From the NCBI RefSeq assembly GCF_004010195.1, contig NC_057724.1:60773687-60837686 (forward strand): a stretch of DNA of 64,000 nt. The letters are read 5' to 3'. The position numbers and the translations under genes are program-made. Under the pieces are notes generated by a model. The model had not been told where the DNA came from. It made no database searches and was given only the letters and a program-made list of their open reading frames with translations. Positions 12,901 through 59,089 of this stretch are shown here, piece by piece. Each line of letters begins with the position of its first letter. The first letter of the stretch is position 1. Origin of the DNA: Chiloscyllium plagiosum (taxonomy: Eukaryota).

Positions 12901-14058
12901 TATTATAATTGCTTAGCGACGTACTATTTTACAACTTGAAAGATAATAGCCAAAAGTATGAGTGAGAGGTCAAACAGCAACAAGTGACACAGAGGATTGC
13001 ACACTCAGTGAGCCTATCACTGATCACAAAACATGCATATTTGATGTGACTAAATCAATCTAATAGCATATCATAGTGAAATACATATGCCTTGGCCAAA
13101 AAGATTTGACAGTAAAATTACAATATAAACTGACTCTTTAACAAGGTATGTCCAGCTGGGGTACAGAACTCACCTCCCCACACACCACCCACTCCCTCCC
13201 GCACACAAAAACAAACTTTTCGAAATCCTTTGTTATCAACTACAAATGTCAATATGTAGCACATACAAGATCACAAGACATGGCACAGATGGGCAAGTCA
13301 AAAATGTACATCAAGATCAAGAAAGTAATTGAGTGAGTGGAAAAACGAGCAGAGCAATGGGAAAGAGGGAATGTACAAAACGTCAGAGGGTTGGGTCGGG
13401 CAGCAGACAGAGAAAGGAGTGTGGCCAAGGAAGGTTTGATGTAAAATAAAGATTGCTGGACTCTCATATTAATATTGAAAATTGATCATTTCCACATTAA
13501 TATAACATTCCAATTTCCGATTTCAGAACCTTTCTGATTTCAGCAAGCCAGCTGATTTGCACAGAATTACAAGCTGCTTGTATTGAATCTTCCAATGCAC
13601 TATGAACTAAGATAAATAAATGAAAAAAAATTCACATTTTTATTCCAAAAATGCAATTTCAGGATGTCAGGACAAATATTTATTGCTCATCCTGAGTTGC
13701 CCTTAAGAAGTTGATGTTGAGACATCTTGTTGAACTATTGCAGTCTGTGTGGGAAAGACACTCCCATCATGCTGTTTGCTAGCCAATTCCAGCATGTTGA
13801 CCCAACATTAACGAAGGGACAGCAGCAGACATCCAGGTCAGGATGATGTTTGTGACTTGGAAGAGAACTTGGGGGTGATGGTGCCTTTACCCTGTTATAT
13901 TGAAGAGATCATAGTTTTGAGATGCTGCTGAAAATCCTTGGCCAGTTACGTCAGGGAGTTCTATAAAGTGTTCTTAACATTGCCACAGTGCACAGTTCTG
14001 CAACAGTGGTGCTGGAAGAGAACAGCAATTCAGGCAGCATCCAACGAGCAGCGAAATC

Positions 14059-14086
14059 GACGTTTCGGGCAAAAGCCCTTCATCAG
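14059..14086 (-). ncRNA. Minimal hammerhead ribozyme motif (PLE terminal repeat)
   Basis: Reverse complement CUGAUGA-A-GGGC-UUUU-GCCC-GAAACGUC. Confidence 0.7.
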
Positions 14087-15521
14087 GAATAAAGGCAGGG
14101 AGCCTGAAGAGTGGAGAGATAAGCTAGAGGAGGGTGGGGGTGGGGAGAGAGTAGCATAGAGTACAATGGGTGAGTGGGAGAGGAGATGAAGGTGATAGGT
14201 CAGGGAGGAGAGGGTGGAGTGGATAGGTGGAAAAGGAGCTAGGCAGGTCGGACAAGTCAAGGGGACAGTGGAAACTAGGATGAGGTGGGGGAAGGAGAAA
14301 TGAGGAAGCTGTTGAAGTCCACATTGATGCCCTGGGGTTGAAGTGTTCCGAGGCGGAAGATGAGGCGTTCTTCCTCCAGGTATCTGGTGGTGAGGGAGCG
14401 GCGGTGAAGGAGGCCCACCTCCATGTCCTCGGCAGATTGGGAGGGGGAGTTGAAATGTTGGGCCACGGGGCGGTTTGGTTGATTGGTGCAGGTGTCTCGG
14501 AGATGTTCCCTAAAGGAGGACCAGTTCCACCATAGAACACACCAGATAGCCTCCTTCTTTAGAGACCGCAATTTCCCTTCCCACGTGGTAAAGATGCCCT
14601 CCAACGCATCTCATCCACATCCCACACCTCCGCCCTCAGACCCTACCCCTCCAACCGTAACAAGGACAGAACGTCCCTGGTGCTCACCTTCCACCCTACA
14701 AACCTCCGCATAAACAAAATCATCCGCCGACATTTCCGCCACCTCCAAAAAGACCCCACCACCAGGGATATATTTCCCTCCCAACCCCTTTCCGCGTTCC
14801 GCAAAGACCGTTCCCTCCGTGACTACCTGGTCAGGTCCACGCTCCCCTACGACCACCCTCCCATCCTGGCACTTTCCCCTGCCACCGCAGGAACTGTAAA
14901 ACCTGTGCCCACACCTCCTCCCTCACCTCTATCCAAGGCCCTAAAGGAGCCTTCCACATCCATCAAAGTTTTACCTGCACATCCACCAATATCATTTATT
15001 GTATCCGTTGCACCCGATACGGTCTCCTCTTCATTGGGGAGACTAGGCGCCTCCTAGCAGAGCGCTTTAGGGAACATCTCCGAGACACCCGCACCAATCA
15101 ACCAAACCGCCCCGTGGCCCAACATTTCAACTCCCCCTCCCACTCTGCCGAAGACATGGGGGTCCTGGGCCTCCTTCAACGCCGCTCCCTCACCACCAGA
15201 CGCCTGGAGGAAGAACGCCTCATCTTCCGCCTCGGAACACTTCAACCCCAGGGCATCAATATGGACTTCAACAGCTTCCTCATTTCCCCTTCCCCCACCT
15301 CATCCTAGTTTCAAACTTCCAGCTCCGCACTGTCCCCTTGACTTGTCCGGACTTGTCCAACCTGCCTAGCTCCTTTTCCACCTATCCACTCCACCCTCTC
15401 CTCCCTGACCTATCACCTTCATCTCCTCCCCCACTCACCCATTGTACTCTATGCTACTCTCTCCCCACCCCCACCCTCCTCTAGCTTATCTCTCCACGCT
15501 TCAGGCTCCCTGCCTTTATTC

Positions 15522-15549
15522 CTGATGAAGGGCTTTTGCCCGAAACGTC
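15522..15549 (+). ncRNA. Minimal hammerhead ribozyme motif (PLE terminal repeat)
   Basis: CTGATGA-A-GGGC-TTTT-GCCC-GAAACGTC. Confidence 0.7.
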
Positions 15550-17346
15550 GATTTCGCTGCTCGTTGGATGCTGCCTGAATTGCTGTGCTCTTCCATCCAC
15601 TGATCCAGAATCTGGTTTCCAGCATCTGCAGTCATTGTTTTTACACAGTTCTGCAACCCCCATCCAGTACATAATAGTTTAATTTTGTGGAATCCCTGGA
15701 AATTCATGAATGTTTCCAGGAATGCTTGATTGGATAAATCCAAATGTTTTCCTGATTCAATAATCAATCTAATACTTCCCTAAAAGCTGAGGTTGTCACT
15801 CACTCCATCCTTTTCATGGAAGTACTCCTTTTAAGTCTCATCCCCAAGATTTATAGAGGCATCCCACTCCCCCAGTAGGAATTAAAAATCAATTCTCCAT
15901 CTTTCTCCTGCACCTCCCAAATGACAATTCTGATTCATTTTAGGATGAGGCTTTCCAATTTAAGAGGGAATTCCTAACCGACAATGACACCTGGAATTCC
16001 CACTTGCAGCACAGACTGAGGTACTGAAGCTGGAGTATCCAGTACGAACAAGAGTTGGGAGCAGCAGCATACATTTATCCTTGTTTACCTACAAAACATG
16101 AACAGCAGTCTGAAATGAAAGCTGGTGTTCACTTTCAGCATATAGTTACATTGAAACTGCACAAAGGGAAATGGGAGCAAGTGAAATCACAATTCATGTT
16201 TAAATCGTTTTAGCTTTGTCTACATCACAGCAGAAATGTGATGCTGCTTCTTCAGCATCCAATTCAAGTCTGGCAATAGTCCACACTCTCCTCCAGATTA
16301 CCTTAAGGGAGAAGGGAATAGAGGGCTACGATAAGATGAAAAAAAAAGAGAAGCTCAAGTGACACATTACCCTAGAATGGACTACTAGACAGAACAGCCT
16401 TTCTTGTTTCTGCAGAGGGCTCTGGAGAGAGTAGTTAGGAAGAAACTTCCCACACACGAAAGGATTGAGAACATGATTCTGCGGTGGTCTTCACAGGGTG
16501 GCAGCTGAGAGGATGTTTCCTCACACTAGGAATCTAGAACTAGGGAATCTCTTTAGCAGGTGAAAAGTGGACCTGGATCATTGAATGTACTGGAGGTTGA
16601 ATTAGACAGATTTTTAATATACAAAGGAGTCAAAGTTTACAGGGTTGAGGCAGATTATAGGCAGAAAAGGGAATTAAGACCACAATCAAATGACCAACAA
16701 TTTTCTTGAAGGTGGAGCAGGCTTGATGGGGTGATTGGTCAATCCTGCTCCTAATTCTTATATTCTTACCATCTGAACGTTTCAGACATTATTCCTTTTG
16801 TTGAAAGTTCCTAATGAGAAATATTATAAAGTTGGATTGGCAGCAGTGCATGCAGCATAACAGCAAGTTTAAAAGTGCTCTTGAAAAAAGTAGTTCCTCT
16901 TCCCCTTTTCCATCAATTCCACTTTTAACTCTGCGTACCCAATAAAATCAAACTGGAATCTGAACATTCTGCATGAAAGCCTATAACCACTAGAAGCACA
17001 CTGAGAAGTTCTATTGTACTGCTGTTTTCCACATTGGGCATAGTAGCCAAATCAGGGTGCAGTTCACTTTAATAAGTATCATGGACCCATAAGGGGAAGT
17101 AGCCCTGATTTCGAACAGTGCCAAAATGTTCCCTGCAGGTAATTTGTTAAAGAAATTATGAAATACACTATAAACATTTTTTCCTACAATGAATGGTAAT
17201 AATTCCCGATTATCCCTTTTTATACTGATCGGAGGGTGAATACTGATTTTTAAATAAAAAAAAATAGACTTAAAGCACGGAACGTTTGTCAGTGTGAGTG
17301 TAATAAGTGCAGCAGCCAACAGTGTAGTAAGAAGTGGGACACAAAC

Positions 17347-17449
17347 CTTCACATGTATTGGGGAGTTTCACCCAATCGGAATCATCGTCGCCCCAGACTG
17401 GCCCAGAGAACAGCAAGAGGACTGATATCAGCCGGGTCACCGTCAGCAT
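17347..17449 (-). CDS. CNPY3: CNPY3 coding exon 1 (signal peptide plus DWVKLPNTCE)
   Basis: ATG at 17449; MLTVTRLISVLLLFSGPVWGDDDSDWVKLPNTCE G|gtttgt; resembles the CNPY3 DWVRLPSKCE motif; phase 1. Confidence 0.92.
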
Positions 17450-17559
17450 ATTGTTGTGATCATTAATGTAACAAAACAGAATAGAAAAGTGAAAATTAAA
17501 AAGCTGGTCAGTGGTCTTGTTCAATTGCCTTATCCATAAAGCCCAGGGCTGACTTCACC

Positions 17560-17720
17560 GAGAAATTGACACAGCCAGTTACGTTTTCACGTTGTATCCA
17601 TTTCCTCCTCGCTCCAACCAATCCCCGCGTCCGCCGTGTCCACTCCGACCAATCACGGCCACGCTAACAGAGCACGCGCAGCGCTCAGCTGTTTGTCTGG
17701 TGGGGGGTGGTGAGTAATTG
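17560..17720. promoter_or_regulatory. CNPY3 proximal promoter (CpG-rich, two CCAAT boxes)
   Basis: Local CpG enrichment just upstream of the ATG; CCAAT at 17618-17622 and 17649-17653. Confidence 0.6.
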
Positions 17721-17914: not shown

Positions 17915-18520
17915 AAGTGCTGGAAGCTGTATTGAAAACAAAAACGCTGGAGATCACAGGGGGTCAGAGAGCATCCGTGAAGAGAGAACAAGCTAACGTT
18001 TCGAGACTCGATGACTCTTGATCAGAGTTATAATAGATGACAGATAGGTATATAGGATCCCATGCTATAATAACTCAGTTTTGAAGAAGGGTCACTTGAC
18101 CCGAAACATTAATTCTGCTTTCTCTCCACGGATGCTGCCAGACCTGCTGACTTTTTCTAACAATTGGGGTGACATGGTGGCTCAGTGGTTAGCACTGTTG
18201 CCTCACAGCACCAGGGATCCGGGTTTGATTCTAGCCTCGCGCGACTGTGTGGAGTTTGCACGTTCTCCCTGTGTCTGCGTGAGTTTCCTCCAGGTGCTCC
18301 AGTTACCTCCCACAATCCAAAGATGTGCAGGTCAGGTGAATTGGCCATGTTAAATTGCCCATAGTGTTAGGTGAATTAGTCAGAGGAAAATGGCTCCGGG
18401 TGGGTTACTCTTCAGAGGATCGGCGTGGACTGGTTGGGCCGAAGGGCCTGTTTCCATGCTGTAGGGAATCTAATTGCTGTTTTTGTTTTGGATTTCCAGC
18501 ATTCGCAATTCTTTGTTCAT
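17915..18520. mobile_element. Short palindromic PLE-derived element with degenerate hammerhead motifs, interrupted by a SINE
   Basis: Minus motif near 17993-18027 (CUGAUCA-A-GAGUC..GUCUC-GAAACGUU) and plus motif 18081-18110 (UUGAAGA-A-GGGUC-ACUU-GACCC-GAAACAUU). Confidence 0.6.
18167..18471 (+). mobile_element. HE1-type SINE
   Basis: Same head, V-domain and tail as the other copies; short AATT(G) duplication at the flanks. Confidence 0.9.
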
Positions 18521-23379: not shown

Positions 23380-23845
23380 GGGAGAAAGTGAGGTCTGCAG
23401 ATGCTGGAGATCAGAGTTGAGAGTGTGGCATCCGAGGAGCAGGTGAATCGACATTTCAGGCATAAGCCCTTCATCAGGATGATGTACACTCTGTCTCAAC
23501 TGTACTGCAAGGGCACACACCATCCCTCTACACTCACACCCTGGACTGAGTCAAATATTGGGAACCATCTTCAGCAGACCTATCATCTGTTCTACAATGG
23601 CCCTGGTTGAAGAATGGGTCATGACGAGAATGTGGTGCTGGAAAGACATAGCATGTCAGACAGCATCCAAGGAGCAGGAGAATCGACGTTTCGGGATGAG
23701 GCCCTTCATATTCTCATTCCTGATGAAGGGCCTATGCCCAAAACATTGACTTTCCTGCTCCTCAGATGCTGCCTGACATGCTATGTCTTTCCAGCACCAC
23801 ACTATTGACTCCGATCTCCAGCACCTGCAGTCCTCACTATCTCCT
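23380..23845. mobile_element. Cluster of short PLE-terminal-repeat elements, including a head-to-head palindrome at about 23625-23845
   Basis: GTGGTGCTGGAAAGACATAGCATGTCAG...CTGACATGCTATGTCTTTCCAGCACCAC inverted arms with central hammerhead-like motifs. Confidence 0.75.
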
Positions 23846-31497: not shown

Positions 31498-31525
31498 ATG
31501 ACTAATATAAAAATGGTAGTTATTC

Positions 31526-31553
31526 CTGATGAAGGGCTTTTGCCCGAAACGTC
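31526..31553 (+). ncRNA. Minimal hammerhead ribozyme motif in a solo PLE terminal repeat (about 31520-31615)
   Basis: CTGATGA-A-GGGC-TTTT-GCCC-GAAACGTC. Confidence 0.7.
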
Positions 31554-32422: not shown

Positions 32423-32457
32423 CACCTGATGAAGAAGTGTCACTCCGAAAGCTAGTG
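32423..32457 (+). ncRNA. Minimal hammerhead motif, second family
   Basis: CAC-CTGATGA-A-GAAG-TGTCA-CTCC-GAAAGCTA-GTG: stem I CAC/GTG, palindromic AGCU in place of stem III, one mismatch in stem II. Confidence 0.6.
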
Positions 32458-33034: not shown

Positions 33035-33165
33035 AGGTAAAAACAATGAATGCAGATGCTAGAAACCAGATTCTGGATTAGTGGTGCTGGAAGAGCACAG
33101 CAGTTCAGGCAGCATCCAAGGAGCTTCGAAATCGACGTTTCGGGCAAAAGCCCTTCATCAGGAAG
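33035..33165 (-). mobile_element. Solo PLE terminal repeat with an intact hammerhead motif (33134-33161)
   Basis: Same family as the ends of the 14005-15643 element. Confidence 0.8.
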
Positions 33166-43324: not shown

Positions 43325-43435
43325 CTGTTTTTAAGTGATACTGTTTTCCCAGAATCCAAGTAGGCTCTTCGGTGTCTGGAAAATCTTCAAGCAAATCAGA
43401 GAAGCCAGGTATTTGATTTTCACACTTGGCCAGAA
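43325..43435 (-). CDS. ATG4A: ATG4A (cysteine protease) coding exon 2
   Basis: cag|TT CTG GCC...AAA ACA G|gtgaga = (V)LAKCENQIPGFSDLLEDFPDTEEPTWILGKQYHLKT, similar to human ATG4A VLSKYEDQITIFTDYLEEYPDTDELVWILGKQHLLKT; 111 nt, phase 1/1; head-to-head with PSMD10 as in mammals. Confidence 0.9.
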
Positions 43436-43769
43436 CTGTTGCAATATAAAAGAGATAGCATAGTAAAGACAGCATAGAAAACAACAAAAATACATTTCTG
43501 AACATTCTCGTTTAACAAATCAGGATGTTTTTAAAATGTTGGCATCGCAGGTGACAACAGCAGGCTCAAAAGGCCAAATTGTCTTAAGCTTTCAGGATCA
43601 TCAATAATCTTTAGGGATGAGAACCTGGTTCTTTGCCTATCTCATGAGTGACTTAAGGTCCACACCAATGTCATTGACTTGTGACTATTCTACTAAGTTC
43701 CCAAGCAAGCTAATCAGTTATATCAAACTGATGTCATTTTCTTAAAAACTAAAGATGGGCGACATCACT

Positions 43770-44110
43770 GTGGGCGGCACGGTGGCACAGTGGTTAGCAC
43801 TGCTGCCTCACAGCGCCTGAGACCCGGGTTCACTTCCCGCCTCAGGCGACTGACTGTGTGGAGTTTGCACGTTCTCCCCATGTCTGCGTGGGTTTCCTCC
43901 GGGTGCTCCGGTTTCCTCCCACAGTCACAAAGATGTGCAGGGTCAGGTGAATTGGCCATGCTAAATTGCCCGTAGTGTTAGGTAACGGGTAAATGTAGGG
44001 GTATGGGTGGGTTTCGCTTCGGCGGGTCGGTGTGGACTTGTTGGGCCGAAGGGCCTGTTTCCACACTGTAATGTAATCTAATCTAATGTAATCAAATCTA
44101 ATCTAATCTA
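43770..44110 (+). mobile_element. Young HE1-type SINE in ATG4A intron 1
   Basis: CpGs intact, long (AATCT)n tail, ATCACT duplication at 43764-43769 and 44111-44116. Confidence 0.92.
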
Positions 44111-44644
44111 ATCACTACGTTCCAAGAATCAATGTTAAGATAAAAACTCTACCAGGCTGGACAGAAAGAGAAGTAGTTGTGGAAAATTAAATTTTTTGTT
44201 ACTTGCATTTCCAAATGAAAAGTCTTGCTTTAGTGGCAACATATTAAACTAGTAAGGAGATTATGTGATCAAGCCACACTCTAAAGACTTCAGCACATCA
44301 TTTAAGTTGACACTTTGTTGCAGTAATGAGGAAGACCTACACTGCTACTGGTGACATGCTGCCTTTTTCAACAAGCTCTCTGAGGTAAATACAAATATAA
44401 TTGTATACCACTATTTGAAGAATTACAACAGTCTTGTAATTGGAGCAGCAGAACTAGCTCATAAGTTCAAATGGCTTAATCTTGTTCCTACGTTCCTATT
44501 GCCAGCCTAGTTGGCTACAGAAGTTCCGACTGCAACATCTTCCTTTGTCCTCACTCATGATTCACATCCATGCAATTTTTTACATTAATCATTGAACAGT
44601 AATTAACAATGTGGAAAACTAGACTGGCCTCCTACCTCGGAGTT

Positions 44645-45590
44645 CAGAGTTGAAGAGTGTGGTGCTGGAAAAGCACAGCCAGTGAGGCAGCATCCAAGGA
44701 GCAGGAAAATCAATGCTTTGAGCGTAAGCGCTTCATCAAGAATGATGGGGCAGACCAAGGGGACTGAGAGATAAATGGAAGGGGGGGTGGGGCGGGGATA
44801 GATGGCAATGGGATAGGGAGCTGAAGGCAAGGGTGAAGATGATAGAACAGAAAGGAGGGTAGAGCAGAGATGGACAGGTAGGACAGTTCAAAAGGGCATG
44901 TCGAGTTGGCAGATTGGAGGGAGGGGAAATGAGGAAACTAGTGAAATCCACATTGATTCCGTGTGGTTGGAGGATCCCAAGGCAGAGGATGAGACGCTCT
45001 TCCTCCAGGCATTGGATGGCTAGAGTTTGGTGGTATAAGCGACCCAGGACCTGCTACTGCTACTGTGTCCATTGCTCTCAATGTGGTCTCCCCTACATTG
45101 GGGAGACAGGACGCCAACTAGCAGAATATTTCAGAGAACATCTCTGGGACACACGCACTAAACAACTCCATCACCCTGTGGGATTGGGAGTTAAAACATT
45201 CGGCCGCAGAGCCTCCTTCACACTAAATTCTAGCCATCTTGGGACCCTCCAACCACATGGAATCAATGCGGATTTCATCAGTTTCCCCATTTCCCAGATC
45301 CAACCTTTCAACTCGGCCACCCTCTTGAACTGTCCTATCTGTCCATTATCCTTCCCACCTATCCGCCCCACCCTCCTCTGCCACCAATCACCTTCACCCC
45401 TAAATTCATATACCTATCGCATTCCCATTTAACTTACCCCTCCAGCCCCACACCTCTCCAATTTATCTCTCAGACCCCTTTGGCCACCTCCTCATTCCTG
45501 ATGAAGAGCTAATGCTCAAAATGTCAACTGTCCTGCTCCTCAGATGCTGCCTGACCAGCTGTGCTTTTCCAGCACCACACTCTTCGCTTC
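44645..45590. mobile_element. Older Neptune-type PLE remnant with inverted ends
   Basis: CVHCSQCGLPYIGETGRQLAEYFREHL GIY-YIG remnant; decayed hammerhead motifs near 44710-44740 (-) and 45497-45526 (+). Confidence 0.8.
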
Positions 45591-46648
45591 TGGTTTCCTA
45601 CCTCTTCATCAAGGGTAGCACAACAACTGCAGCATTGTCCTGGCAGAGATCAGCTGGCTCACTAGTGGAATTTGAGAGTTTGTTAGTTCACAAATCATAA
45701 AAATTGTTAATCACAAAGTCATCAGGGTTCAACTTGGTTCAAATTGTGTTTTTTTCTTGTTCCAGATTCAGCATGTAACATATCTATTTCTGTAGATTCC
45801 TTGTCGACCTGCTGTGTTTACTTTATCACTGTAAACATACATCAAGATATTTTCTACTAAATAAATGTTTCAAAAAAAAACTCACCACTCAGAGTTGCAA
45901 CACACCACAGACACATTCACCAGTGCATGTCCTAGCATTTTTGTTTAAACCCTGACAAGTTTACACTGAACAGGTTTTGATTCGGTAAACATTGGCAAGA
46001 ACGTGGCACTGGGACAGCTGTGGTCAATCCTCACAAGCTGTCAAAAGGGTCAACTCAAGGCACCAAGAATCAACATAGGATGTCATTCCTATTTAGATCC
46101 AAGTCACTTTATTTTAAGACAGGGTTTCATGTCATTGTGTAACGGGTAGTCAACAAGCTTTCATTAACTTGACATCACGAATGAACATCTTACGAGCTTC
46201 GCCTAACTTAAACAAACTATACATTTAAATGTATACTTGACCAAACAAAAAGTTGAGCAGGCGCCAAGCATTGATAAGAAGGAACTCCTTTGAACGTTTT
46301 AATAAGTAACAGTAACAAATAATTCGACATCAGCTAAATTCCAAGCCCACGGTGCTTCTTTCAGTTTCTGAACAGGTAATAGCGTAAATAACGAATTATA
46401 AGATTCAAACAAATGCCAGCAGCAATTAAACTACAAATTGATACCATCCCCCACAACACTAATTGTTACAATATTTATTATAGCCTCGAAACAACCATAA
46501 ATGCAGTTACACTCACAGCTTTTACCCAACCACCGACCACTCTGTTAACTAGCACTGAATCAACTTACAAACGACGCTTAACGAAGGGAAGGCTGAGATA
46601 GTTTTGGGAATGCATCTATTAGTTTTGTTCCAACAGCTAAGACGTTAC

Positions 46649-46658
46649 CTGCGTCCAT
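46649..46658 (-). CDS. ATG4A: ATG4A coding exon 1 (10-nt ATG GAC GCA G)
   Basis: agaATGGACGCAG|gtaacg at the CpG island edge; gives MDA(V) in frame with exon 2. Confidence 0.8.
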
Positions 46659-46659
46659 T

Positions 46660-47392
46660 CTCAGTCCTGTCAGTGTCATCACAGGATCAAAGCGATGAGC
46701 CTGCGCACAGTACGCAGTGGCTTTTGGTCAATGTAGTCCTCCTGCGCTCCGAGCCTTTGTCTCTCCCCAAGACATGTTGGACTACAGTTCCCGGAATGCA
46801 CCGTACCCGACAATGATGTAATTCCGCTGTGAGCTGGCGCCGGCTAAAGGCCGGCCTCCGTTGCTAGGGCCTAAAGCTCAGAGGAAGGACGAGAAATGGC
46901 TGTCTCCTTCGGTCACTAACTGTGAGCCTGTATCTCCATTGACCGCTCCTGAAGAGCGGAAGGTAACAAGGACACTCAACGAGTGAATCAGTACGGCAAT
47001 GCCCAGTGTGTTTTCCTTTCATCTAATTGGTCAGCTACGCTTTGAATGACAGCCGTTTAGGGGTGGGGACAACGCTATGATTGACAGCCGTGGGAAGCGG
47101 AGACAATGCTGAGGAGGTTCCTGGCTGGGGGCGGGGTCAGTGGCGTTTGCCTTCCCAGCCGGAGGCGATACCACTGATGTAATGAAAAACAAAGGGGGCG
47201 GGGCCAGTGATCTATCTGATAGACACTTGAATCGGGGGTGGGATAAATGGGACAGGGGAGGCGATCATTGGCGCAGGAGGCGGGGTCAGGTCAGGAGATG
47301 TGTGTACGGGGCGAGCATGAAGAACCGGAAGGAATATTGGTTTCTGCGGAAGTGGAGTCTCTTTTCGGTTGCTATGAGAGTGAATCAGCATC
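46660..47392. promoter_or_regulatory. ATG4A/PSMD10 bidirectional CpG-island promoter
   Basis: About 735 bp between divergent ATGs; GC boxes (GGGGCGGGG near 47127 and 47195), ATTGG boxes, ETS-like CGGAAGTG near 47346, and GACTACAGTTCCCGGAATGCACCG at 46780-46803 (ACTACA plus ZNF143/SBS-type motif). Confidence 0.8.
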
Positions 47393-47506
47393 ATGGATGG
47401 TTCAGTGTCTAATGTGGAGATCTGTAACCTGGCCTACACAGGGGAGCTGGAGCAGCTTAAGACGCTTGTCCTGTCAAATAAGAGTTTGGCTACCATAACT
47501 GATCAA
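47393..47506 (+). CDS. PSMD10: PSMD10 (gankyrin) coding exon 1
   Basis: MDGSVSNVEICNLAYTGELEQLKTLVLSNKSLATITDQ|gtaagc, similar to human MEGCVSNLMVCNLAYSGKLEELKESILADKSLATRTDQ; 114 nt. Confidence 0.95.
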
Positions 47507-48668
47507 GTAAGCTAAAATCCCCCTTTTACAATTTATATTGTCAAGAGGCTGTGCTGAGACGCTTCTCCATAGTGAGGGTCGGTTTGGGATCCCGAGAGGT
47601 TCATTTGTAGTTCCATTGGGAAAACATATTCCACTGATTTTGTCCAAATGTCCTTTTGGCTCCTTGCCTGCACCCTTCAGAGCAATCCATTCCGCATAGC
47701 ATTGCAGGTTTTTTCTGAGGTTGAATTTCGATGCTGTGGAGGTGCCCGTGTTGGACTGGGGTGGACGAAGTCAAAAATCTTGATTTGATTAAATTTATTA
47801 TTGAAATACAGTGAATAGTATTGTACTGCGTGCTAACTGGACAAATCATACCTTACATAAGTACTTTAGGATAATAGAATGCAAAAGGCAATGTTACAGT
47901 GAAAGTGCAGAGAAATATTAACTGTAGTATTTGAGAGGTCTGTTCATAAGTCTGATAACAAGCTGTTCTTCATTACAGAATGGATATGTGCTAATAGATG
48001 GATTATGTGGTTAGAATAACAGGATCAATTATCTTTTAGCATGGGTTATTAATGACCTTTTGAGCAAAAAATCTGCTCTGCTTACCTGGCCTGTTCTACA
48101 TCAGACTCCAACCCACAACAGTACTTGAGTTCAGAAGAACTGAACTGGACTTGAAACATGAGCTCTGTTTCTGTCTCCACAGATGCTAGATCCTTCAGCA
48201 TCTTCTGTTTCAGATTTCCAACATCTGTGGTATATTCCTTTTAGTTAATGGGCTGATTCTTATCTGTCTTCTGGACAAAGAATGCTGGTGTAGCCACATC
48301 TCATAGTCAGCTAAAATACAAATGATGTTGTATTAATAATGAACCTCACGCAAATGCTCTGAGCACATGGGATTGGATCCTGCCAAAGCAGATGGTGAAA
48401 TTTTAATTAAACAAAAACAAAAAGCTTGGTTACAAAAAGTTAACCTAATAGTGACCATGTAATCACTGTCATTGTTGTTTTTTTTTAAAAATCTAGTTTG
48501 ATAATGACCTTTAGGGAAGGAAATCTTCCTTCCTTGCCTTGCATTTGATTCCAGACCCACAGCAAAAAGTAATTCTTAGCTATGTTCTTGGAAATAAGGG
48601 ATGGGCAATGTCTAGCCAGTGACACCCCCATCACTTTTTTTTAACCATATGAAATAAGAAAAACATAT

Positions 48669-51600
48669 TTAGAATGTGTATAGGGTATGTGCAAATCGGG
48701 AAAGGGTTAAGTTCTGAGTTTTGTGAAACAAGTTCAGCTGAGCATGATTCAGATCAGATAAGAACTTGCCGTTAACAATGTGGTACTGGAGACAATGGCA
48801 ATGGGTTATCAAGGTGGAAAAGCATTCATTATGTAGAGCCATTTAACAATATTGGAAGCATTCAGTATGCAAGGTCAGCTAACCAGGGGAAAAGTATCCA
48901 TTGTATGAATCCGGTTAAGGTCATTCATTGTATAACAGTAAAGGGCTAGGTCTGTTCTATTGATACTTGCTGATTGTAACGGTCACCCAATTAATATGTA
49001 TGTTGCCTTATTTGGATATTCCTTCCTATAAATTGACTCTATAGTTCAATGAGAAACCGTTCTTCGAGAGAAGACCGAGAACTCATGTCTCTGTGCATGT
49101 GTGCGATCGTTCTCTCCTCCTCCAGGGCTGGAATAAAGGTGGAGGTAAAACCATGCTGTGTCTCTGAGCATTTTGCTTCAGCTGAGGGGGGGATATTGGC
49201 ATAGTTGACAGGATCCAAACGGATAGTTATGATTGGACAGTGTTGGCGGCTGCCCAGAACATTGGTGTCTCAAGAGGGACAGGCCCACGAGGTAAGTTTG
49301 TAAACCTTGGTCCCTCTTGATATTCCTGTGCCGGAGATGGTCCCCTTGCTCAATTGCTGTCTATTTTATGAATTCCTCCAATGGTAATTCAGTCGAGAGA
49401 CACAGTTTCACAAGTGCGTTAGCAGGCAGAGGTTTGAGTCCTCTGCACTGCATTGGGGGGTAGATGCGTGTGATAGAGGCTAGAGTTTTCTGCATGGTAC
49501 TGGGGTTCAAGTCCCGGGAGGAGTGGGGCAGGGGGTGGTGATTTGTGGTTCGGGTTCTCTGCACAGTACTGGGGTTAGAGTCCTCTGGGGTGGGCTTGAT
49601 TGAGATGTCAGTCCTCTGCGCAGTACTGGAGTTTGAGTCTATTGGGTGGGTTGATCTGAGGTTCAAGTCCTCCACACTGCTGAGGTTCGAGCATTGTGTT
49701 AAAGTGAGCTTCGAGCTCTATGTTTAATTGGGATCGAGCTTTCTGTGTTTAAGTGGGATTCGGGTTCTCTGAGTTCAATTGGTGTTCGTGCCTCCATGAG
49801 GAGTAAAGTGAGAAAGGGGTTAAAGTCCCCTAGTGGTGAAATTTGAGGGTCTTAGTCTTGTTCTGGGGGAAGAGAGTGGCTTGGATTGTGGCGCCATGTG
49901 GTCTGCTGCAAGGGCTTTCTCTTGTTATAAGTGTAATATCAGTGAGAGGATGCAAAATAAAAATGAAAATGCTGAAATTAAGGTTGTACTAATACTTGGG
50001 TTGAAAAAGGAAAGTTTCAATGTAAATTGTGCCATGCTGAGAGTGTTTGATGTTTAAAAATTTTGGTTTGTTAAAATACTGGTTCAGAAAATCCTTTTAA
50101 GTGACTGTTTTGCCTTGTTTGTATCAGGAACTCAATTCAATGTGTTTTGTGGGCTATGTATAGGGTCAAATTTTGTTTTTACATTGAAATTATACACTGT
50201 TATGTCCTCATCAAAATTAGCATACTTGTAATCTTAAAACAAATTGATTGCCTTGAGCCCCTGAATTGTTTCAAATTCTACAGTGCCTGTTTCAAAAAAA
50301 CTGCTGAGTCACTGGTCATGCTTTAGCCAGATGAGAGAATTGTATTATAGTATCTTTGCTGCTGTGTTTTTTGATGCAGAGTGTTCACAAAAAGAAGAGT
50401 GCATTTTAATCTTGATGTTTTGTTAAGATTTTAGAGAATATTAGAACTTGAGGCTGATCTGTTTCAGTTCTGTTATTATTAAGACTTTATTGGTTCCCTT
50501 CATACTGCAAATTCAAAGAATGTTGATCTCTACCAAAATTGCCACTGTAATTCAAACGGTTTTATTTGGAGAACATACTTTAAAATATTCAGCATTTGTT
50601 TCCCACGAATATTTGAGATTTAAATCTAAACTGAAACTGCCTCTTCAATTGCTAAAGCACAGGAAACATTTTGTTGGTTTCTTGCAGTTCCAGACTTTTG
50701 AAATACTTTTCCTGACAGCTTTCACATTAGCCAAGTATCAATTTGTTTAAAGAAAATAATTTTTGAAAACCTGAATGTGGTACCTGAGGGTTTGATTTTA
50801 GGACCGACCATTGCTTGTTGTTGTCTAATTGACTGAATCATTTAGACAGTACAATTTAGAAGTTTCTGGATTGTATAAAACTTAATAATGTTGTAAGTAG
50901 TGGACAGAATAACAGGCTTCAAGACGACTGAGAATGTTGAAATAGGCAGACACAATTTAGTGTAGTTGAATGTGTGACTGTCTTCATACTGATAACCACC
51001 TCGGCAAGGAAGGAACGAGAGAGGAAATGCAAAGCTCACGTTGTCTCTAGATTTTCTCCATTCACAGGTAAAGCATGCCTTCGGACCACCGCCCACCCCT
51101 CCACAACCTGATCCAACAGATTCAATAGCTCCCCAGTCATGAACACAAAAATGAAGAAACCAACAACAGTGAAGAGTTAAAGGTTTAGATGGAGAGGAAT
51201 TTGTTAAGTGTGTACAAGACAATTTTCTGATTCAGTATATGGATGTGCCTACTAGAGAAGGTGCAAAACTTGGGAAATAAGGCAGGAAAGGTGACTGAGG
51301 TGTCAGTGGGGGAGCACTTTGGGGCCAGTGACCATAATTCTATTCATTTTAAAATAGTGATGGAAAAGGATAGACCAGATCTAAAAGTTGAAGTTCTAAA
51401 TTGGAGAAAGTCTATTTTTGACGGTATTAGGCAAGAACGTTTGAAAGCTGATTGGAGGCAGATGTTCGCAGGTAAAGGGACGGCTGGAAAATGGGAAGAC
51501 TTTCAGAAATGAGATAACAAGAATCCAGAGAAAGTATATTCCTGTCAGGGTGAAAAGAAAGGCTGGTAGGTGTAGGGAATGCTGGATGACTAAAGAAATT

Positions 51601-54370
51601 GAGGGTTTGGTTAAGAAAAAGAAGGGAACAGATGTCAGGTATAGACAGGATAGATCGAGTGAAACCTTAGAGTATAAATGCAGTAGGAGTATACTTCAGA
51701 GGGAAATCAGGAGGGCAAAAAGGGGACAGGAGATAGCTTTGGCAAATAGAATTAAGGAGAATCCAAAGGGTACTTACAATATATTAAGGACAAAAGGGTA
51801 ACTAGGGAGAGAATAGGGCCCCTCAAAGATCAGCAAGTACAGAGGAGGAAGTGCTGGATGTCTTGAAACAGGTAAAGGTGGATAAATCCCCAGGACCTGA
51901 TCAGGTGTACCCGAGAACTCTATGGGAAGCTAGAGAAGTGATTGCTGGGCCTCTTGCTGAGATATTTGTATCATCGATAGTCACAGGTGAGGTGCCGGAA
52001 GGCTGGAGGTTGACAAACATGATGCCACTGTTTAAGAAGGGCGGAAACGATAAGCCAGGGAACTATAGACCGGTGAGCCTGACTTCAGTGGTGGGCAAGT
52101 TGTTGGAGAGAATCCTGAGGGACAGGATATACATGTATTTGGAAAGGCAAGGACTGATTCGGGATAGTCAACATGGCTTTGTACATGGGAAATCATGTCT
52201 CACAAACTTGATTGAGACTTTTGAAGAAGTAACAAAGAAGATTGATGAGGGCAAAGCAGTAGATGTGATCTATATGGACTCCAGTAAGGCGTTCGACAAG
52301 GTTCCCTATGGGAGACTGATTGATTAGCAAGGTTAGATCTCATGGAATACAGGGAGAACTAGCCATTTGGATACAGAACTGGCTCAAAGGTAGAAGACAG
52401 AGGGTTGTTTTTCAGACTGGAGGCCAGTGACCAGTGGAGCGCCACAAAGATCGGTGCTGGGCCCTCTACTATTTATCATTTACATAAATGATTTGGATGC
52501 GAGCATAAGAGGTACTGTTAGTAAGTTTGAGTGCAGGTTCATAGTTCCTTGAAAGTGGAGTCGCAGGTAGATAGGATAGTGAAGAAGGCATTTGGTATGC
52601 TTTCTTTTATTGGTCAGAGTATTGAGTACAGGATTTGGGAGGTCATGTTGTGGCTGTACAGGACATTGGTTAGGCCACTGTTGGAATATTGCGTGCAGTT
52701 CTGGTCTCCTTATCGGAAAGATGTTGTGAAACTTGAAAGGGTTCAGAAAAGATTTATAAGGATGTTGCCAGGGTTGGAGGATTTGTGCTATAGGGAAAAC
52801 AGGCTGGGGCTGTTTTCCCTGGAGCGTCAGAGGCTGAGGGATGTTTTTATAGAAGTTTACAAAATTATGAGGGGCATGGATAGGATAAATAGACAAAGTC
52901 TTTTCCCTGGGGTCGGGGAGTCCAGAACTAAAGGGCATAGGTTTAGGGTGAGGGGGGGAAAGATATAAAAGAGACCTAAGGGGCAACTTTCTCACGCAGA
53001 GGGTGGTACGTGTATGGAATGAGCTGCCAGAGGATGTGGTGGAGGCTGGTACAATTGTAACATTTAAGAGGCATTTGGATGGGTATATGAATAGGAAGGG
53101 TTTGGAGGGATATGGGCCGGGTGCTGGCATCTGGGACTAGATTGGATTGGGATATCTGGTCGGCATAGACAGATTGGACCGAAGCGTCTGTTTCCATGCT
53201 GTACCTCTCTATGACTCTAAGAGGAGGTCCATACGCTTTTTGTCAGTGGCCTTTCTACAGACATTAAACCACGCGAGTTTTACCTTTGCCTTTCAATCAT
53301 TTAAGGGATATGAAGGTTCATTGATCAAGCTAACATCACAACAGGCTTTGTTACGTTTAGCAGCAGAGCAAGAGTAGAAGCAGCAAAGAATGCGGTTATT
53401 CACCTAGCCTGCTGCACCACTGCACACTCATTTGCGCTGGTATCTTCCACCTGAAGCACCTCGGCATGGACGGAAGTCTCATCAGTTTTGGGAAGCATTT
53501 AACTGCCCTTATCAAAGAATTCAGATTTTTCTGACGAGTGATGCAAGGACAGACTGAATTTTGTTTTCAGGTTGTACTTTACCAAAGGAGATTTTGGAGA
53601 ACTAGCTTGTTTCCACTTGAATTGGAGGGGATGGAGTGGCCACTAAGGACTGTGGGTTTAAGAACTTTACTGGTGATTTTTTTTTCCAAATGGTAGGATT
53701 CTTCAAACTCTTAATTTCTGTAACTGACAAGTAACTTTTTTGTTATAATCATTGTAAGCTGTGTGTCAATTTCTTGCTTAAATACTGGCTGTCAGAGTCT
53801 TATGAGAGCCGGTAATGCCATTGGTTATCATGAAATGATAAAAAGAGGGACTGAGAATGTGCATAGGGTATGATCGAGTAGGGAAAGGGTTAAGTTCTGA
53901 GTTTTGTGAAACGAGATTCAGCTGAGTATGACTCAGATCAGGTAAGAACTTGCAGTTAACAATGGGAGGCAAGGGTAATGGGTTAACAAGGTGGAAAAAC
54001 ATTAAATATGTCGATCCATTTAACAAGATGATGTAGCATTCAATATATGAGGTCAGTTTAATAAGGTGAAAAGTATTCATTATGTGAAGCCAGTTATTCA
54101 TTGTGTAATAGCAGATGGCTTAATCTTTACTATTGACTAGCTGATTGTAATGGTCACCCAATTAATATGTATGTTGCTTTATCTGAATGCTCCTCCCTGT
54201 AAAATGACAAGATAGTTAATTGAGAAATTGCTGTTCCAGAGAAGACCTGTGCACATGGGTGATCGTTCTCTCTCCCTCCGGGGTCTGGAATAAAGATGAA
54301 GGTAAAACTGCTGTGTCTGAGCGTTTTGCTTTGACTGAGGGGAGGAAACGGGATGCCAGTTAGATTCAGA
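48669..54370 (+). mobile_element. Degenerate LTR retroelement/ERV in PSMD10 intron 1 (5' LTR about 48669-49195, 3' LTR about 53852-54370)
   Basis: Two diverged direct repeats of about 520 bp (GGGAAAGGGTTAAGTTCTGAGTTTTGTGAAAC...GGAATAAAG), PBS TGGCATAGTTGACAGGAT at 49197-49214, PPT AAAAAGAGGGA at 53840-53850, leader donor GAG|GTAAGT near 49291. Confidence 0.8.
51176..53218 (+). mobile_element. CR1 LINE (same family as 29118-31497) inserted in the ERV, internally deleted
   Basis: ORF 51851-52327 (PGNYRPVSLTSVVGKLLE...SQHGF...KAFDKVP) and 52531-52968. Confidence 0.95.
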
Positions 54371-54634
54371 AAGGTAAATGAAGATACCTGCATTGAGGAA
54401 ACATGTCCTTGGGTACACAAGATTGTAATGGTGTTTTAATTTTCATCTTGTGCAAAATGAGTATAGATAAAGAATTTGAAACTTACTGGGAAATTCAGCA
54501 TGCTATGATTATTCTTCCCTGAAAGTTATTTTGCAACAGAACTACTAATGAGTCCTTTCTCATTGCATAACACTGCCTCTGAAATAGCTTGATCCCTAAT
54601 TCCTTTCTTGATGTATTGCTCTAGAAATGTTTCA

Positions 54635-55030
54635 ATTATAAGGAAAGACTGGATAGGCAGGAACTTTTTTCCCAGGAGCATTTAAGGTTGAGAGGTGACC
54701 TTATGCCGATTCTAAAATCATGTGGGGCATTGATAAGGTGAATAGACAGTCTTTTTTCTGTGGTAAGCGAGAGAGCATAGCTTTGAAGTGAGGGGGAAGA
54801 TTTAAGAGATCTGAGGGCAACTTTTCCATACACAGTGGTGTGTATATGGAATGAATTGCCAGAGGAAGTGATAGATCCAGCTACAGTTGCAACATTTAGA
54901 CAGGTATGTGAATAGGAAATGTTTACAAGGAAATGGGCCAAAGGTGTGTGAATGGGACGAATTTATTTTGGGAAACTGGTAAACGTGGATGAGTTGTATT
55001 GAAGGGTCTGTTTCAATACTGTATGATTCT
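54635..55030 (+). mobile_element. CR1 LINE 3' end
   Basis: RLRGDL / WNELPEEV remnants and tail. Confidence 0.8.
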
Positions 55031-56003
55031 CAACAAATTAATTTGTTGCCTAGGAAATGGTGAAGAGGGAGTGCTTTTAAATTCTGGCGGCAAGAAAGAA
55101 CATCGTTGCTTTAATCGATGATCTATGTCAGTAGTCTGGCTCCTTGTTCCTGCATGCTATGACATCCTAAACTACAGCCCTGTGACTCTATTTTACAATG
55201 TATAAATTTTATTTACAGTGCATTCCATATTTTGTAGTTAATGGTCCACAGCAGTAAAGACTTACAGCAGTGATGGTAAAATATTATGTATCTTCAATAT
55301 GCTTTTTTTTACCCCAAGAAGAACTTGAATGGCTTTATTTCAACTTGTATTAGTGCTTTGACTCCCAACCTATCTGAAAAAAAATTACCATTTGTTGCCA
55401 GAATTGTGTATTATCCTCTTCATTAATCTCTTAGCTATTCTAATAACTAACTTTTGTTTTCTTCAATTGTGCAAGGCTTTTATATTTATTTGCCTCTGAG
55501 TTATATATACCTGGGACTGTCATCAGTTTAAGTACTCCTGATGTCTCTTAGCATTTCTGCTGTGATATGTGACATGGCAAAGTAAAGGAGTTTTTTTCCA
55601 AAAACAATTGGTTGACCCTTCACACAGATATTAAGGTTGTTGTTGATTGCTGCAAGGGTTGCTTGACTGAAGGTTATAATTAAAGTAAGACATTTTAAAT
55701 ATAACCTAGCCTGAATACTCAGCACAATACTGAAGGAGTGCTGCCCTGTTGTTGGTGCATGTTTTGAGTGAGAAGTTACATAGAGCCCCCATTTATTTTC
55801 CCAGATTTGATATAAACCATCCACAGGTTATATTTGTGGAAGTAAATTAAGATGTGAAATTGTATAGTGACTTTCTCAACAGCAAGTTATGACGAAGCAT
55901 GTTATAGCCAATAAAGGACTTTTCATGTCTTACCACTTGCGTAAGAATAGTGAGGCCAATCTGCACACAGGAAAATCCCCAAACTGCAGTGTGATAATGG
56001 ACT

Positions 56004-59000
56004 TCAAGGTTTGTGTAGTAGTTTTTAGCTTGGGTGCTGGTTGCTGTATCTGTGGTTATGTTTGCCAAACTGGGAAGGTGATTTCCAGACGTTTCATCCC
56101 CTGTCTAGATGATATCTTCAGTGCTTTGGAGCCTCCTATGAAGTGCTGCTGGACTGTTATCTGGAATTTATTTGGTTCTGCTCCTCTTGTTTCCAGTTTC
56201 AGTCATTTGTTGTAGTGGCTGGTACATTGGGTCTAGGTGTATATATTTGTTGATGGAGTCCATAGTTGAATGCCATGCTGCTAGAAATTCTCTAGCTGTC
56301 CTCATAAGTTCTTTAGCTTGTCATATGATTGTGTAGTCCCAGTGGAATTTGTGGTCCTTGTCATCTGTGCGTTTGGCTGCTAGGGACAGCTGGTTATGCC
56401 ATTTAGTAGCTAGTTAGTGTTCATGGATGTGATTGCTAGTTGTCTCCCTGTTTGGCCTATTTTAGTAGTTCATGCAATCTTTGCATGGAACCTTGTAAAT
56501 TACATTAGTCTTGCACATGATGGATGTAGCGGCTTTTGTTCTGGTGAGTTGTTGTCTGAGTGTGGCTGACATGAATCAGTTGTCAGAGAAGATTGACTGT
56601 TAGTTCTGAGAGGTTTTTTATATAAGGTAGCATGGCTTGTGCGTTGTGTTGTGGTATGTCCTCGTGGTGTTTGTCTGCTAAGCATCTACGGATTAAGTTG
56701 TGGGAGTGTCTGTTCTTGGTGAAGACTCTGTAGAGATGTTCTTGTCTTCGCAGGATGGGAGTGCTGCAGTGTGTTGTAGCCTTTTTGAACAGGGTCCTAA
56801 TGCAGCTTCTCTTGTGTGTTTGTGTAGAATAAACAGCACACTACAGAACCTACAAAAACATGGACTGATAGCCAGGATTGATTTACAAAGGCTGAAACCA
56901 GAAGGTCACAGCACCCCAAGATTTTATGGATTACCCAAGATACACAAACCAGACATACCACTTGGACCCATTGGTGGCACTTCCATCACATACAGTGGCA
57001 AAAGAACTCCCAATAAAAATTGAACCATCCAATCAGCAGGTCCAAGCACTCTATACAATCATTCCTAGACAACATCAAGAGCAATAAACATAGACAAGGA
57101 CGAAGCAATGGTCTCATTCGATGTAAGGGCACTGTTTACTTCGATTGACAAAACTCTCTAGCTAGAGAGACAATAGCCAACCTCCTGGACAAACAGAACA
57201 GACAACATGACGGGGAAACTATCAACAAGGTCTACATACTCAAACCAGACCTGTGCTTGCTTGACGATGCACTTCACGTTCAACAACCAAATATGAACAG
57301 ATTAAGGGGATACTAATGGGCTCACCTATCTCCGGGCTCACAATGCAAAGATTGGAACAAACAGCCGTCCCACAAACCATACCCAAACTCTGAATCAGAT
57401 ACATGGACAACACTTTTGATATCATTAAGAGAACAGAGATCGAGAACACACACCTGATTATCATAGGGATCAAATTTATGAGAGCAGGAAACAACCAACC
57501 CCCATTTCTGGATGTGATGGTAGAAAGAACACCGAATGGCGAATGCACTACAAGAATGTACAGAGGAACCTCGATTACCCGAGTGAAATGGGCAGGCACT
57601 ATTTCGTTCGAATAATTGATTATTCGGTTAATTGATTCAATGCCTCTTCTCTGGGGCTCAGTTTTCTAAAGTTAACATTTTCCACTTTTATGCCTACCTT
57701 GTTCCCTCTCGCTGTCTCGGGGGTTTGTTTCTGAGCAGACACACACTTGTGTGTAAGGGACCTGCAGCACTGCTGAAACCTCGCACCCCCAATCAGTTCA
57801 ATGGGATTGACACAATGAGCACTTGCTAAGTCCACTCCCTCAACCACACACACCCGTTTGCCCCTGCCCCCACCAACATTCCGCCCAGCTGGACTGGACA
57901 CCACCAGTAAGACTATTGCTGCCTTTGGAGTGGTGAGTCTCCAAATAGCCAACACAAAACACACTCCACCGTCCATGTTGGAGGGATTACCTGGGGAAGG
58001 AGGGGTTCAGGGTACACGCCCGTGTAGGACTCCAGGGAAAGTGTGAGCAGAGAGTGAGAGAGGGTGGGCAGTCAGTCATTTGGAGAAAGTGCTTGGGCTC
58101 CCATCAGTGTCCAGGACTGTTCCTGGCAGCATTTTACTGAGCCAAGTTCGTTTTTAAACATTCTAAACAAAAGACGCGATCAGTGTTGGAAACATCTCTT
58201 TGTAGTGTTTCTATTGGGACCTTGAAATCTCCTTCAGGTAATCCAGTATTCAGATAATCAAGGTTCCTCGGTACAAGAAAATCTCACACACCAACCAGAT
58301 CCTGAACTACAACAGTAACCACCCGATCGCACAAGGAGTTGCATTAGGACCCTGTTCAAAATGGCTATAATACACAGCAGCACTCCCAACCTGCGAAGAG
58401 AAGAACACTTCTACACAGTCTTCACTAGGAACTGATATTCCCGTAACTTCATCCACAGATGCTTAGCAAACAGACAATGCAACAAGGACATGCCACAATC
58501 CAACATGCTAGCCATACTACCTTATATGAAAAGCATCTCAGAACTAACAGCCAGGCTTCTCTGACCACTGCAATTCATGACAGCCCATAAACCGACTGCC
58601 ACGTTCAGACAACAACTCACCAGAACAAAAGACCCTATACCCATTATGTGCAAGACTAACAGGTGCAAAGACTGCATAAACCACTATAATAAACAGGCAG
58701 ACAACTAGCAATCCGCATCCATGAACACCAACTAACCACCAAGCACCATGATCAGCTGTCCCTAGTAGCCATACACACAGATAAAAAGGACGACAAATTT
58801 GACTGGGACAACACAACGGTTATTGGACAGCCAGAGAATTTCTCGAAGCATGGCATTCATCCATGGACTTAATCAACAAACATAAAGATCTAGGCCCAAT
58901 ATACTGACCACTCCGCCAAACAACTGGAACCGGAAACTGAAAGCAGCAGGAACAGAACCAAATAAATTCCAGAAGAGACAGCACAACAGCGCTTCACAGG

Positions 59001-59089
59001 ACACTCCAAAGCACTGAAGATGTCACCTGGGCAGGTGACAAAACATCTGCAAATCAACCTCCCAGCTCGGTGAACCTACCCACAGCTAC
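56004..59089 (+). mobile_element. Penelope-like element (second family) with an inverted 5' copy of its 3' end
   Basis: RT remnants PRFYGLPKIHKPDIPLGPI, MVSFDVRALFTSI, MGSPISG, RYMDNTF; about 56004-56820 is an inverted copy of the 3' region; 13-bp TSD GTGATAATGGACT at 55991-56003 and 59090-59102; hammerhead motifs at 56085-56124 (-) and 59011-59050 (+). Confidence 0.88.
57561..58271. mobile_element. Tc1/mariner-superfamily MITE (711 bp) inserted in the PLE
   Basis: TIRs CAGAGGAACCTCGATTA / TAATCAAGGTTCCTCGG flanked by TA on both sides; removing it restores the PLE sequence AGAATGTACAAGAAA. Confidence 0.85.

What the first reader, a model, noticed from the sequence alone, without database searches (positions are those of the whole stretch)
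14005..59089. About a dozen minimal hammerhead-ribozyme motifs from several PLE families, with compensatory variation
Seen: the core CUGA(U/A)GA-N-stem II-GAAA recurs at 14059(-), 15522(+), 17993(-), 18081(+), 23450(-), 23685(-), 23720(+), 31526(+), 32426(+), 33134(-), 34795(+), 44710(-), 45498(+), 56085(-) and 59014(+), some copies decayed. Stem II differs between families (GGGC/GCCC, GGGUC/GACCC, GUCACCU/AGGUGAC) yet stays paired. Stem III is replaced by a 4-nt palindrome that covaries (ACGU-C versus AGCU-A). Known: Penelope-like elements carry minimal hammerheads of this kind in their terminal repeats, proposed to act as dimers (Cervera and De la Pena 2014). Inference: this genome is densely seeded with potential self-cleaving RNAs, some in sense orientation within host pre-mRNAs.
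Basis: partly seen in the sequence, partly recalled or inferred. Interest (0 to 1): 0.7.

Follow-up and report, generated by a model that had tools for sequence, protein, structure and literature searches.

The report
Penelope hammerheads with a cleavage record
The motifs are real end-pieces of three very common Penelope-type jumping-gene families, mostly decayed or predicted to be folded shut and likely harmless to the host genes here, but U6 RNA copies joined exactly at the predicted cut site elsewhere in the genome suggest that these ribozymes likely do cut in living cells.

Summary
All 15 sites exist. [quoted passage not shown] Only 4 of 15 are fully intact; 7 have lost a core base, mostly by CpG decay. 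Eleven are arms of head-to-head insertions, so a read-through transcript makes the antisense arm first and is predicted to fold the ribozyme shut. Genome-wide there are at least 121,838 matches with intact core and closing pairs, so the window is ordinary for this genome. Helix I, II and the palindrome covary between families; single copies decay at the neutral rate. Only two intact motifs are sense to an inferred host pre-mRNA, and neither is predicted to fold. The best evidence for activity lies outside the window: of about 63 U6 loci, 11 are fused to PLE sequence, 9 of them at the first base after the predicted cut, in all three families. This points to cleavage of element RNA in the germ line. 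The scan noted PLE hammerheads and the U6 junctions before on other DNA; I tested both here.

The parts
13996..15644 (.). Family A (Neptune-like) PLE insertion, head-to-head: short minus arm 13996-14515, plus arm 14514-15644 with GIY-YIG endonuclease remnant and tail; 14-bp target-site duplication; in intron 1 of the canopy (CNPY) gene
14059..14086 (-). Intact minimal hammerhead (family A1), sense to CNPY intron 1, predicted sequestered by the antisense arm
14823..15308 (+). GIY-YIG endonuclease frame with CX4CxxC linker
   Evidence: Pfam PF01541 E 2.5e-4, just under cut-off; over cut-off in relative L093
15522..15549 (+). Intact minimal hammerhead (A1); predicted cut after 15549
17995..18025 (-). 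Decayed hammerhead (G8 lost), A-related subfamily
18081..18110 (+). Decayed hammerhead (C3 lost, palindrome broken), 5-bp stem II, A-related subfamily
23385..23479 (-). Solo family A end; motif 23450-23477, core intact, G10.1.U pair and broken palindrome
23626..23838 (.). Head-to-head mini-insertion with 13-14-bp duplication: minus arm truncated inside the core (23685-23712), plus motif 23720-23747 with G12 lost
31520..31607 (+). Solo family A1 end; intact motif 31526-31553, antisense to the inferred ATG4 intron
32418..32508 (+). Solo family B end; motif 32426-32454, AGCU palindrome, stem II mismatch
   Evidence: family linked to a second GIY-YIG
33037..33164 (-). Solo family A1 end with tail; intact motif 33134-33161; upstream flank predicted to pair with the 5' strand of stem II
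34704..34919 (.). Head-to-head mini-insertion with 16-bp duplication; plus motif 34795-34822 (core intact, palindrome broken), minus arm lacks the 5' core
44639..45579 (.). Older head-to-head family A insertion; motifs 44712-44739 (-) and 45498-45525 (+), both with G12 lost
56004..59090 (.). Family D (Penelope/Poseidon-like) head-to-head insertion with 13-bp duplication and decayed RT/endonuclease; motifs 56088-56121 (-, core intact) and 59014-59047 (+, G12 lost); in PSMD10 intron 1
626..17450 (-). Host gene, canopy family (CNPY3 label recalled): exon 1 near 17345-17450, further exons near 7560-7690, 4100-4170, 680-800
   Evidence: Pfam PF11938; frames and splice sites
43325..46660 (-). First two exons of an ATG4-like gene; later exons lie outside the window on the other strand
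47390..63850 (+). Host gene PSMD10 (gankyrin)-like, exons near 47390, 59710, 63680

Best explanation
The motifs are the minimal hammerheads carried in the terminal repeats of three Penelope-like retrotransposon family groups, and they likely cut the element's own RNA some of the time while the scattered genomic copies are likely inert passengers. Shown: each family end is linked to GIY-YIG and/or RT sequence; most copies are 5'-truncated stubs inserted head to head with a target-site duplication, one arm with the 30-40-nt tail and one without; cores are conserved and helices covary between families; single copies decay at CpG sites. Inferred: selection on the fold acts only in the source elements; cleavage needs a dimer or the element's protein; a fraction of element RNA is cut after the NUH, leaving a 5'-OH end that is joined to U6 (likely by RtcB) or copied to its end; most insertions are copied from uncut RNA. 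In a host pre-mRNA the antisense arm of a head-to-head insertion is made first and is predicted to capture the ribozyme arm.
For: PLE linkage: A; B; D. Copy numbers 87,506, 20,789 and 13,543 with reversed-pattern controls 0. Geometry: of 69 same-group neighbours within 300 bp, 60 divergent, 5 convergent, 4 same-strand; 56 of 65 divergent pairs have exactly one tail, against 32 expected. Covariation including helix I, which was not in the descriptor. Neutral decay: G12 changed in 15 of 94 copies against 15 of 88 at a control CpG, p 0.84; non-CpG core 2.8% against tail 1.8%, p 0.30. Stem II probability 0 in all 7 motifs folded with their partner arm. U6 junctions: 9 of 11 at the first base after the cut against 7 of 147 ordinary 5' ends within 1 base, p 6e-11. 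Small excess of plain copies starting at the cut, 7 against 1.6 expected, p 0.0013. RtcB needs U6 cyclic phosphate and a 5'-OH (PMC6789731, passages).
Against: No cleavage was measured. RNA reads of the family run across the cut and show no pile-up of ends (fragmented poly(A) library, weak test). The monomer and cofold minimum-energy structures are not the hammerhead fold. Helix I is only 2-4 bp, and my permutation test of its covariation had too few classes to be significant (p about 0.08). About two dozen U6 loci are followed by a SINE head, so U6 joins other RNA ends too and the joint need not be an RtcB ligation. The 5'-end histogram has another small peak of 4 at G12. The p-value uses family A as background for all three families.
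Confidence: 0.8

Rival explanations
1. The intact copies cut host pre-mRNAs often enough to matter.
For: Tens of thousands of intact copies; two intact sense copies in this window; the motif appears able to cleave. Canonical-hammerhead retrozymes are depleted from Xenopus introns (10.64898/2026.07.22.740005, passages).
Against: Sequestration by the antisense arm or flank; no adjacent same-family partner on the same strand; neutral decay; low activity in vitro even as dimers (PMC4209133) and none without protein for the anole element (PMC11167929).
Confidence: 0.1
2. The motif is a conserved protein-binding or pausing structure that does not cleave in vivo; U6 junctions mark a reverse-transcriptase stall or a host nuclease site at the same base.
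For: Most insertions span the site uncut and 86 of 147 start at -9 to +5 of C3; ribozyme mutants do not affect insertion in vitro (PMC11167929); no RNA end pile-up.
Against: The junction follows the hammerhead geometry in three families whose sequences around the site differ, and no U6 junction falls in the -9 to +5 cluster that holds most ordinary 5' ends.
Confidence: 0.1
3. The short copies are non-autonomous retrozymes replicating through small circular RNAs.
For: Many copies are only 90-220 bp and hammerhead-centred.
Against: They are collinear with the 3' end of coding PLEs, end at the two PLE tail positions, are head-to-head rather than tandem (4 of 69 close neighbours on the same strand), and do not run from cut site to cut site.
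Confidence: 0.04

Closest known systems
[quoted passage not shown]
   Same: Type I topology, no helix III, palindromic 15.2-16.2, extra base between 9 and 10.1, G10.1-C11.1, short helix I, several covarying families, mostly single or opposite-strand copies of truncated elements.
   Different: Helix II is 4-5 bp in families A and B (7 in D). At least 121,838 intact-pattern matches against about 4,000 in coelacanth and 9,000 in Xenopus (different methods). 'Shark' and 'Callorhinchus' did not occur in the 2 supplement files searched; one file could not be searched.
EN+ PLE insertions with inverted pLTR, one-sided tail and TSD (PMC8557442, PMC3846280; passages)
   Same: Inverted 5'-truncated copy, 30-40-bp tail at one end, target-site duplication, Neptune-type CX2-5CxxC linker in families A and B.
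   Different: No full-length or tandem master copy was recovered here; stubs dominate.
Poseidon element PAc of Anolis (Frangieh et al. 2024, PMC11167929; parts 1-2 of 4 and passages)
   Same: Two 3' ends that match two RT start sites; both DNA strands are extended, which fits the head-to-head arms; uncut RNA is the main template.
   Different: They found no RNA-seq ends at the cut; here a DNA record of such ends appears.
U6/LINE-1 chimeras formed by RtcB ligation (Moldovan et al. 2019, PMC6789731; passages)
   Same: U6 ending in 5-6 T joined to the 5' end of retroelement RNA and retrotransposed.
   Different: The partner is a PLE and the junction is fixed at a ribozyme cut instead of being scattered.

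Membership tests
PLE minimal hammerhead | Core CUGANGA...GAAA and NUH | tested here: met
   Family majorities; 8 of 15 window copies keep the core
PLE minimal hammerhead | No helix III, palindromic 15.1-16.1 | tested here: met
   ACGU in A and D, AGCU in B
PLE minimal hammerhead | Extra base between 9 and 10.1, and G10.1-C11.1 pair | tested here: met
   A in families A and B, U in D; both were part of my descriptors but not of the alignment
PLE minimal hammerhead | Short helix I with covariation | tested here: inconclusive
   2-4 pairs with different sequences in 10 of 11 clusters; permutation p about 0.08 on 4 classes
PLE minimal hammerhead | Self-cleavage as a dimer | not testable with these tools
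   Only indirect: U6 junctions at the cut
EN+ Penelope-like element | RT followed by GIY-YIG endonuclease upstream of the motif | tested here: met
   A: GIY-YIG over cut-off in L093, RVT_1 E 0.008 in L107; D: RVT_1 E 2.8e-4, GIY-YIG E 0.018 in relatives; B: endonuclease only, by tblastn
EN+ Penelope-like element | Inverted pLTR, one-sided tail, TSD | tested here: met
   56 of 65 pairs with one tail; a shared flank word of 8 or more bases in 36 of 65 (my count, no chance control)
EN+ Penelope-like element | Full-length ORF in partial tandem | tested here: inconclusive
   20 extended loci were all 5'-truncated; longest shared stretch 1.9 kb
Neptune clade (families A, B) | CX2-5CxxC linker between RT and endonuclease | tested here: met
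   CX4CxxC in both; definition from PMC8557442
Neptune or Penelope/Poseidon clade | Placement in an RT phylogeny | not tested
   No reference PLE proteins at hand; the Poseidon label for D rests on recalled motifs and on the linker being absent in one frame
Non-LTR retrozyme | Tandem units each with a canonical type I hammerhead | tested here: not met
   Head-to-head, minimal motifs, collinear with coding elements

The most novel reading that the evidence does not exclude
The U6-PLE fusions are a fossil record that minimal PLE hammerheads of two clades cleave element RNA in an animal germ line, and that the 5'-OH product is joined to U6 at the RNA level and still serves as template for both arms of an insertion. 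The head-to-head geometry then silences most inserted ribozymes in host transcripts, which would explain how a vertebrate genome tolerates over 100,000 intact copies.
Probability: 0.7. Interest if true: 0.62.

Novelty: new member of a known kind. Interest (0 to 1): 0.45.

Why it matters
The motifs are a known class, and this window is typical of its genome. [quoted passage not shown] The fixed U6 junction gives a countable genomic test that can be run in any PLE-rich genome. The copy number also makes this genome suited to test whether intronic ribozymes are selected against. I found no paper on U6-PLE chimeras in searches of the held library, which lacks most subscription journals.

Tried and rejected
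Rfam: no hammerhead model matched. A guessed perfect-stem pattern for family D gave 0 matches, which led to the A.G mismatch. No full-length family A element in 20 extended loci. MAFFT misaligned family D, so that alignment was not used for pair counts. Pfam did not recognise the decayed D frames in the window itself. Run search: no RNA holder listed. RNA reads were laid only on 14520-18150: run X6 gave 0 reads, X5 gave none in the unique intron and only 71 of 1,162 reads were 99% alike or more, so cleavage at this locus is untested; the strand ratio (about 3:1 antisense in the body, 132 sense to 76 antisense at 15555) is open to priming bias and was not used. A heterodimer of 31526 and 32426 (900 nt apart) was rejected because ACGU and AGCU do not pair. 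A genome-wide sense/antisense test in introns could not be run without annotation. Lunse et al. (PMC5785218) is not held; I saw only its title in a reference list. Supplements of the bioRxiv preprint were not seen and may name the cartilaginous fish it sampled.
Full report
Setting. The window is G000:C15:60773687-60837686 of a 3.56-Gb animal genome. Its repeats look like those of a cartilaginous fish; that label is recalled, and earlier notes of the scan say shark. It holds exons of a canopy-family gene on the minus strand (Pfam PF11938; exon 1 near 17345-17450), a PSMD10-like gene on the plus strand from 47390 and the first two exons of an ATG4-like gene on the minus strand. The later ATG4 exons lie about 76 kb and more beyond the window on the plus strand, across assembly gaps. 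Whether 17700-43300 is ATG4 intron is therefore uncertain.

Observation. All 15 sites are present. Five motifs have an exact core and a stem of at least four Watson-Crick pairs, against 0.13 +/- 0.34 in 30 shuffles. Four of 15 are fully intact, four keep the core with a damaged helix, and seven have lost a core base.

What carries them. Family A lies downstream of a GIY-YIG frame with a CX4CxxC linker at 14823-15308 and, in longer relatives, of RT motifs. Family B relatives carry a different GIY-YIG with the same linker, 31-37% identical. Family D at 56004-59090 is a decayed RT-endonuclease element whose relatives match RVT_1 and, weakly, GIY-YIG. By the linker definition in PMC8557442 (passages) A and B are Neptune-like; D is Penelope/Poseidon-like on recalled motifs. 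No tree was built and no full-length copy was found in 20 extended loci.

Abundance. Patterns with intact core, closing pairs and palindrome match 87,506 (A), 20,789 (B) and 13,543 (D) times, with reversed controls at 0. In 60 stretches of 10 kb at round-number positions (583,544 called bases) I found 187 element ends of these families, one per 3.1 kb. Fifteen in 64 kb is thus ordinary here. PMC4209133 (parts 1-2 of 4) reports about 4,000 and 9,000 motifs in coelacanth and Xenopus by another method.

Covariation and decay. Across 11 clusters of three or more copies (drawn from 226 motifs), stem II, the palindrome and helix I change sequence and stay paired; helix I was not in the descriptor and has 2-4 pairs in 10 of 11 clusters. 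A permutation test on four classes was not significant. Within family A, 25 of 94 copies that span the motif are intact (154 hits, 60 dropped as not spanning). G12 lies in a CpG and is changed in 15 of 94 copies, against 15 of 88 at a control CpG (p 0.84); non-CpG core positions change at 2.8% against 1.8% in the tail (p 0.30). The fold is kept in source elements, not in inserted copies.

Geometry. In the sample plus the 264 kb around the window (265 ends), 60 of 69 same-group neighbours within 300 bp are head-to-head; within 3 kb the counts are 75 divergent, 27 convergent, 21 same-strand. Of the 75 pairs, 10 with the poorly defined C1 subfamily were dropped; 56 of the other 65 have exactly one tail, against 32 expected. 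Five window insertions show duplications of 9-16 bp. This is the known PLE structure (PMC3846280, passages; PMC8557442) and fits two RT start sites and extension of both strands (PMC11167929, parts 1-2 of 4). A consequence, inferred: whichever strand is transcribed, the antisense arm comes first. Stem II probability is 0 for all 7 motifs folded with their partner arm; the D pair was not folded whole.

Host pre-mRNA. Seven motifs are sense to an inferred host transcript. Four have lost a core base, one (23477) has weakened helices, and two are intact: 14086, whose arm pairs over 246 nt at 98%, and 33161, whose flank pairs with stem II (probability 0.01-0.10) and whose host context is uncertain. 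The nearest same-strand core-intact neighbours are 0.9-23 kb apart, and the 0.9-kb pair has incompatible palindromes. RNA reads laid on 14520-18150 came almost all from other copies, ran across the cut and showed no pile-up of ends; this library is a weak test.

Evidence for cleavage. Following earlier notes of the scan, I collected U6 copies without reference to PLEs: all 48 Rfam matches scored and all 37 matches of a U6 3'-end pattern, about 63 distinct loci by my count. Eleven are fused to PLE sequence. Nine join at the first base after the predicted cut: six in family A with different subfamily tails (L177, L194, L202, L206, L241, L260), two in B (L275, L296) and one in D (L236, read on its better-kept arm). 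Two join inside the endonuclease region (L189, L193). A tenth cut-site fusion (L204) came from a junction-biased search and is not counted. Ordinary family A copies start within one base of the cut in 7 of 147 cases and at -9 to +5 of C3 in 86 of 147, so 9 of 11 has p 6e-11. The U6 T-tract makes each junction uncertain by a base or two if C17 had decayed. In four loci both arms carry the junction (L194, L202, L236, L275), as expected if it existed before copying, though copying of one arm from the other is not excluded. RtcB joins U6 cyclic phosphate to a 5'-OH (PMC6789731, passages), the end a hammerhead leaves. About two dozen other U6 loci are followed by a SINE head, so a template jump at an RNA 5' end is a live alternative; either route needs an RNA that begins at this base.

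Literature seen. PMC4209133 parts 1-2 and a supplement search; PMC11167929 parts 1-2 and passages; passages of PMC8557442, PMC3846280, PMC6789731, PMC6765202, PMC7229834, PMC11838501; part 1 of 5 and passages of 10.64898/2026.07.22.740005. Searches showed no paper on shark PLE hammerheads, U6-PLE chimeras or their in vivo cleavage.

Verdict. A real, known kind of motif in new members, at very high density. The host pre-mRNA inference is weak. The U6 record raises the odds that the ribozymes act on element RNA in vivo. Interest 0.45.

Noticed in passing
window 43325-46660 and 47390-63850; flanks L031-L050: ATG4-like exons 1-2 are on the minus strand but exons 3 onward lie beyond the window on the plus strand, and the last PSMD10 exons lie upstream of the window; the canopy gene would be nested in ATG4 intron 2. 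Likely misordered or misoriented contigs (gaps flank the window).
   Followed up: partly
L175, L182, L183, L187, L192, L195-L200, L231, L232, L235 and others: About two dozen of about 63 U6 loci are followed directly by the head of the tRNA-like SINE (HE1 label recalled), and five by CR1-like LINE sequence.
   Followed up: no
L178, L294: U6 3' end followed by a tRNA-like sequence (recalled resemblance).
   Followed up: no
window 31616-31679 (-): The 5' half of a family D hammerhead region abuts the 3' end of the family A copy at 31520-31607, facing it and cut off inside stem II.
   Followed up: no
   Followed up: partly
sample loci L111-L170 and RNA loose ends at window 15517-15518: 86 of 147 family A copies start within -9 to +5 of C3, at the front edge of the ribozyme; a transcript start there is one reading.
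   Followed up: partly
window 15460-15507: A pyrimidine tract ending in CAG lies 14 nt before the family A1 core, like a splice acceptor; an intron ends at helix I in Drosophila Penelope (PMC4209133).
   Followed up: no
window 37840-38493 (-): RT fragment (RVT_1) of a LINE other than the CR1-like family.
   Followed up: no
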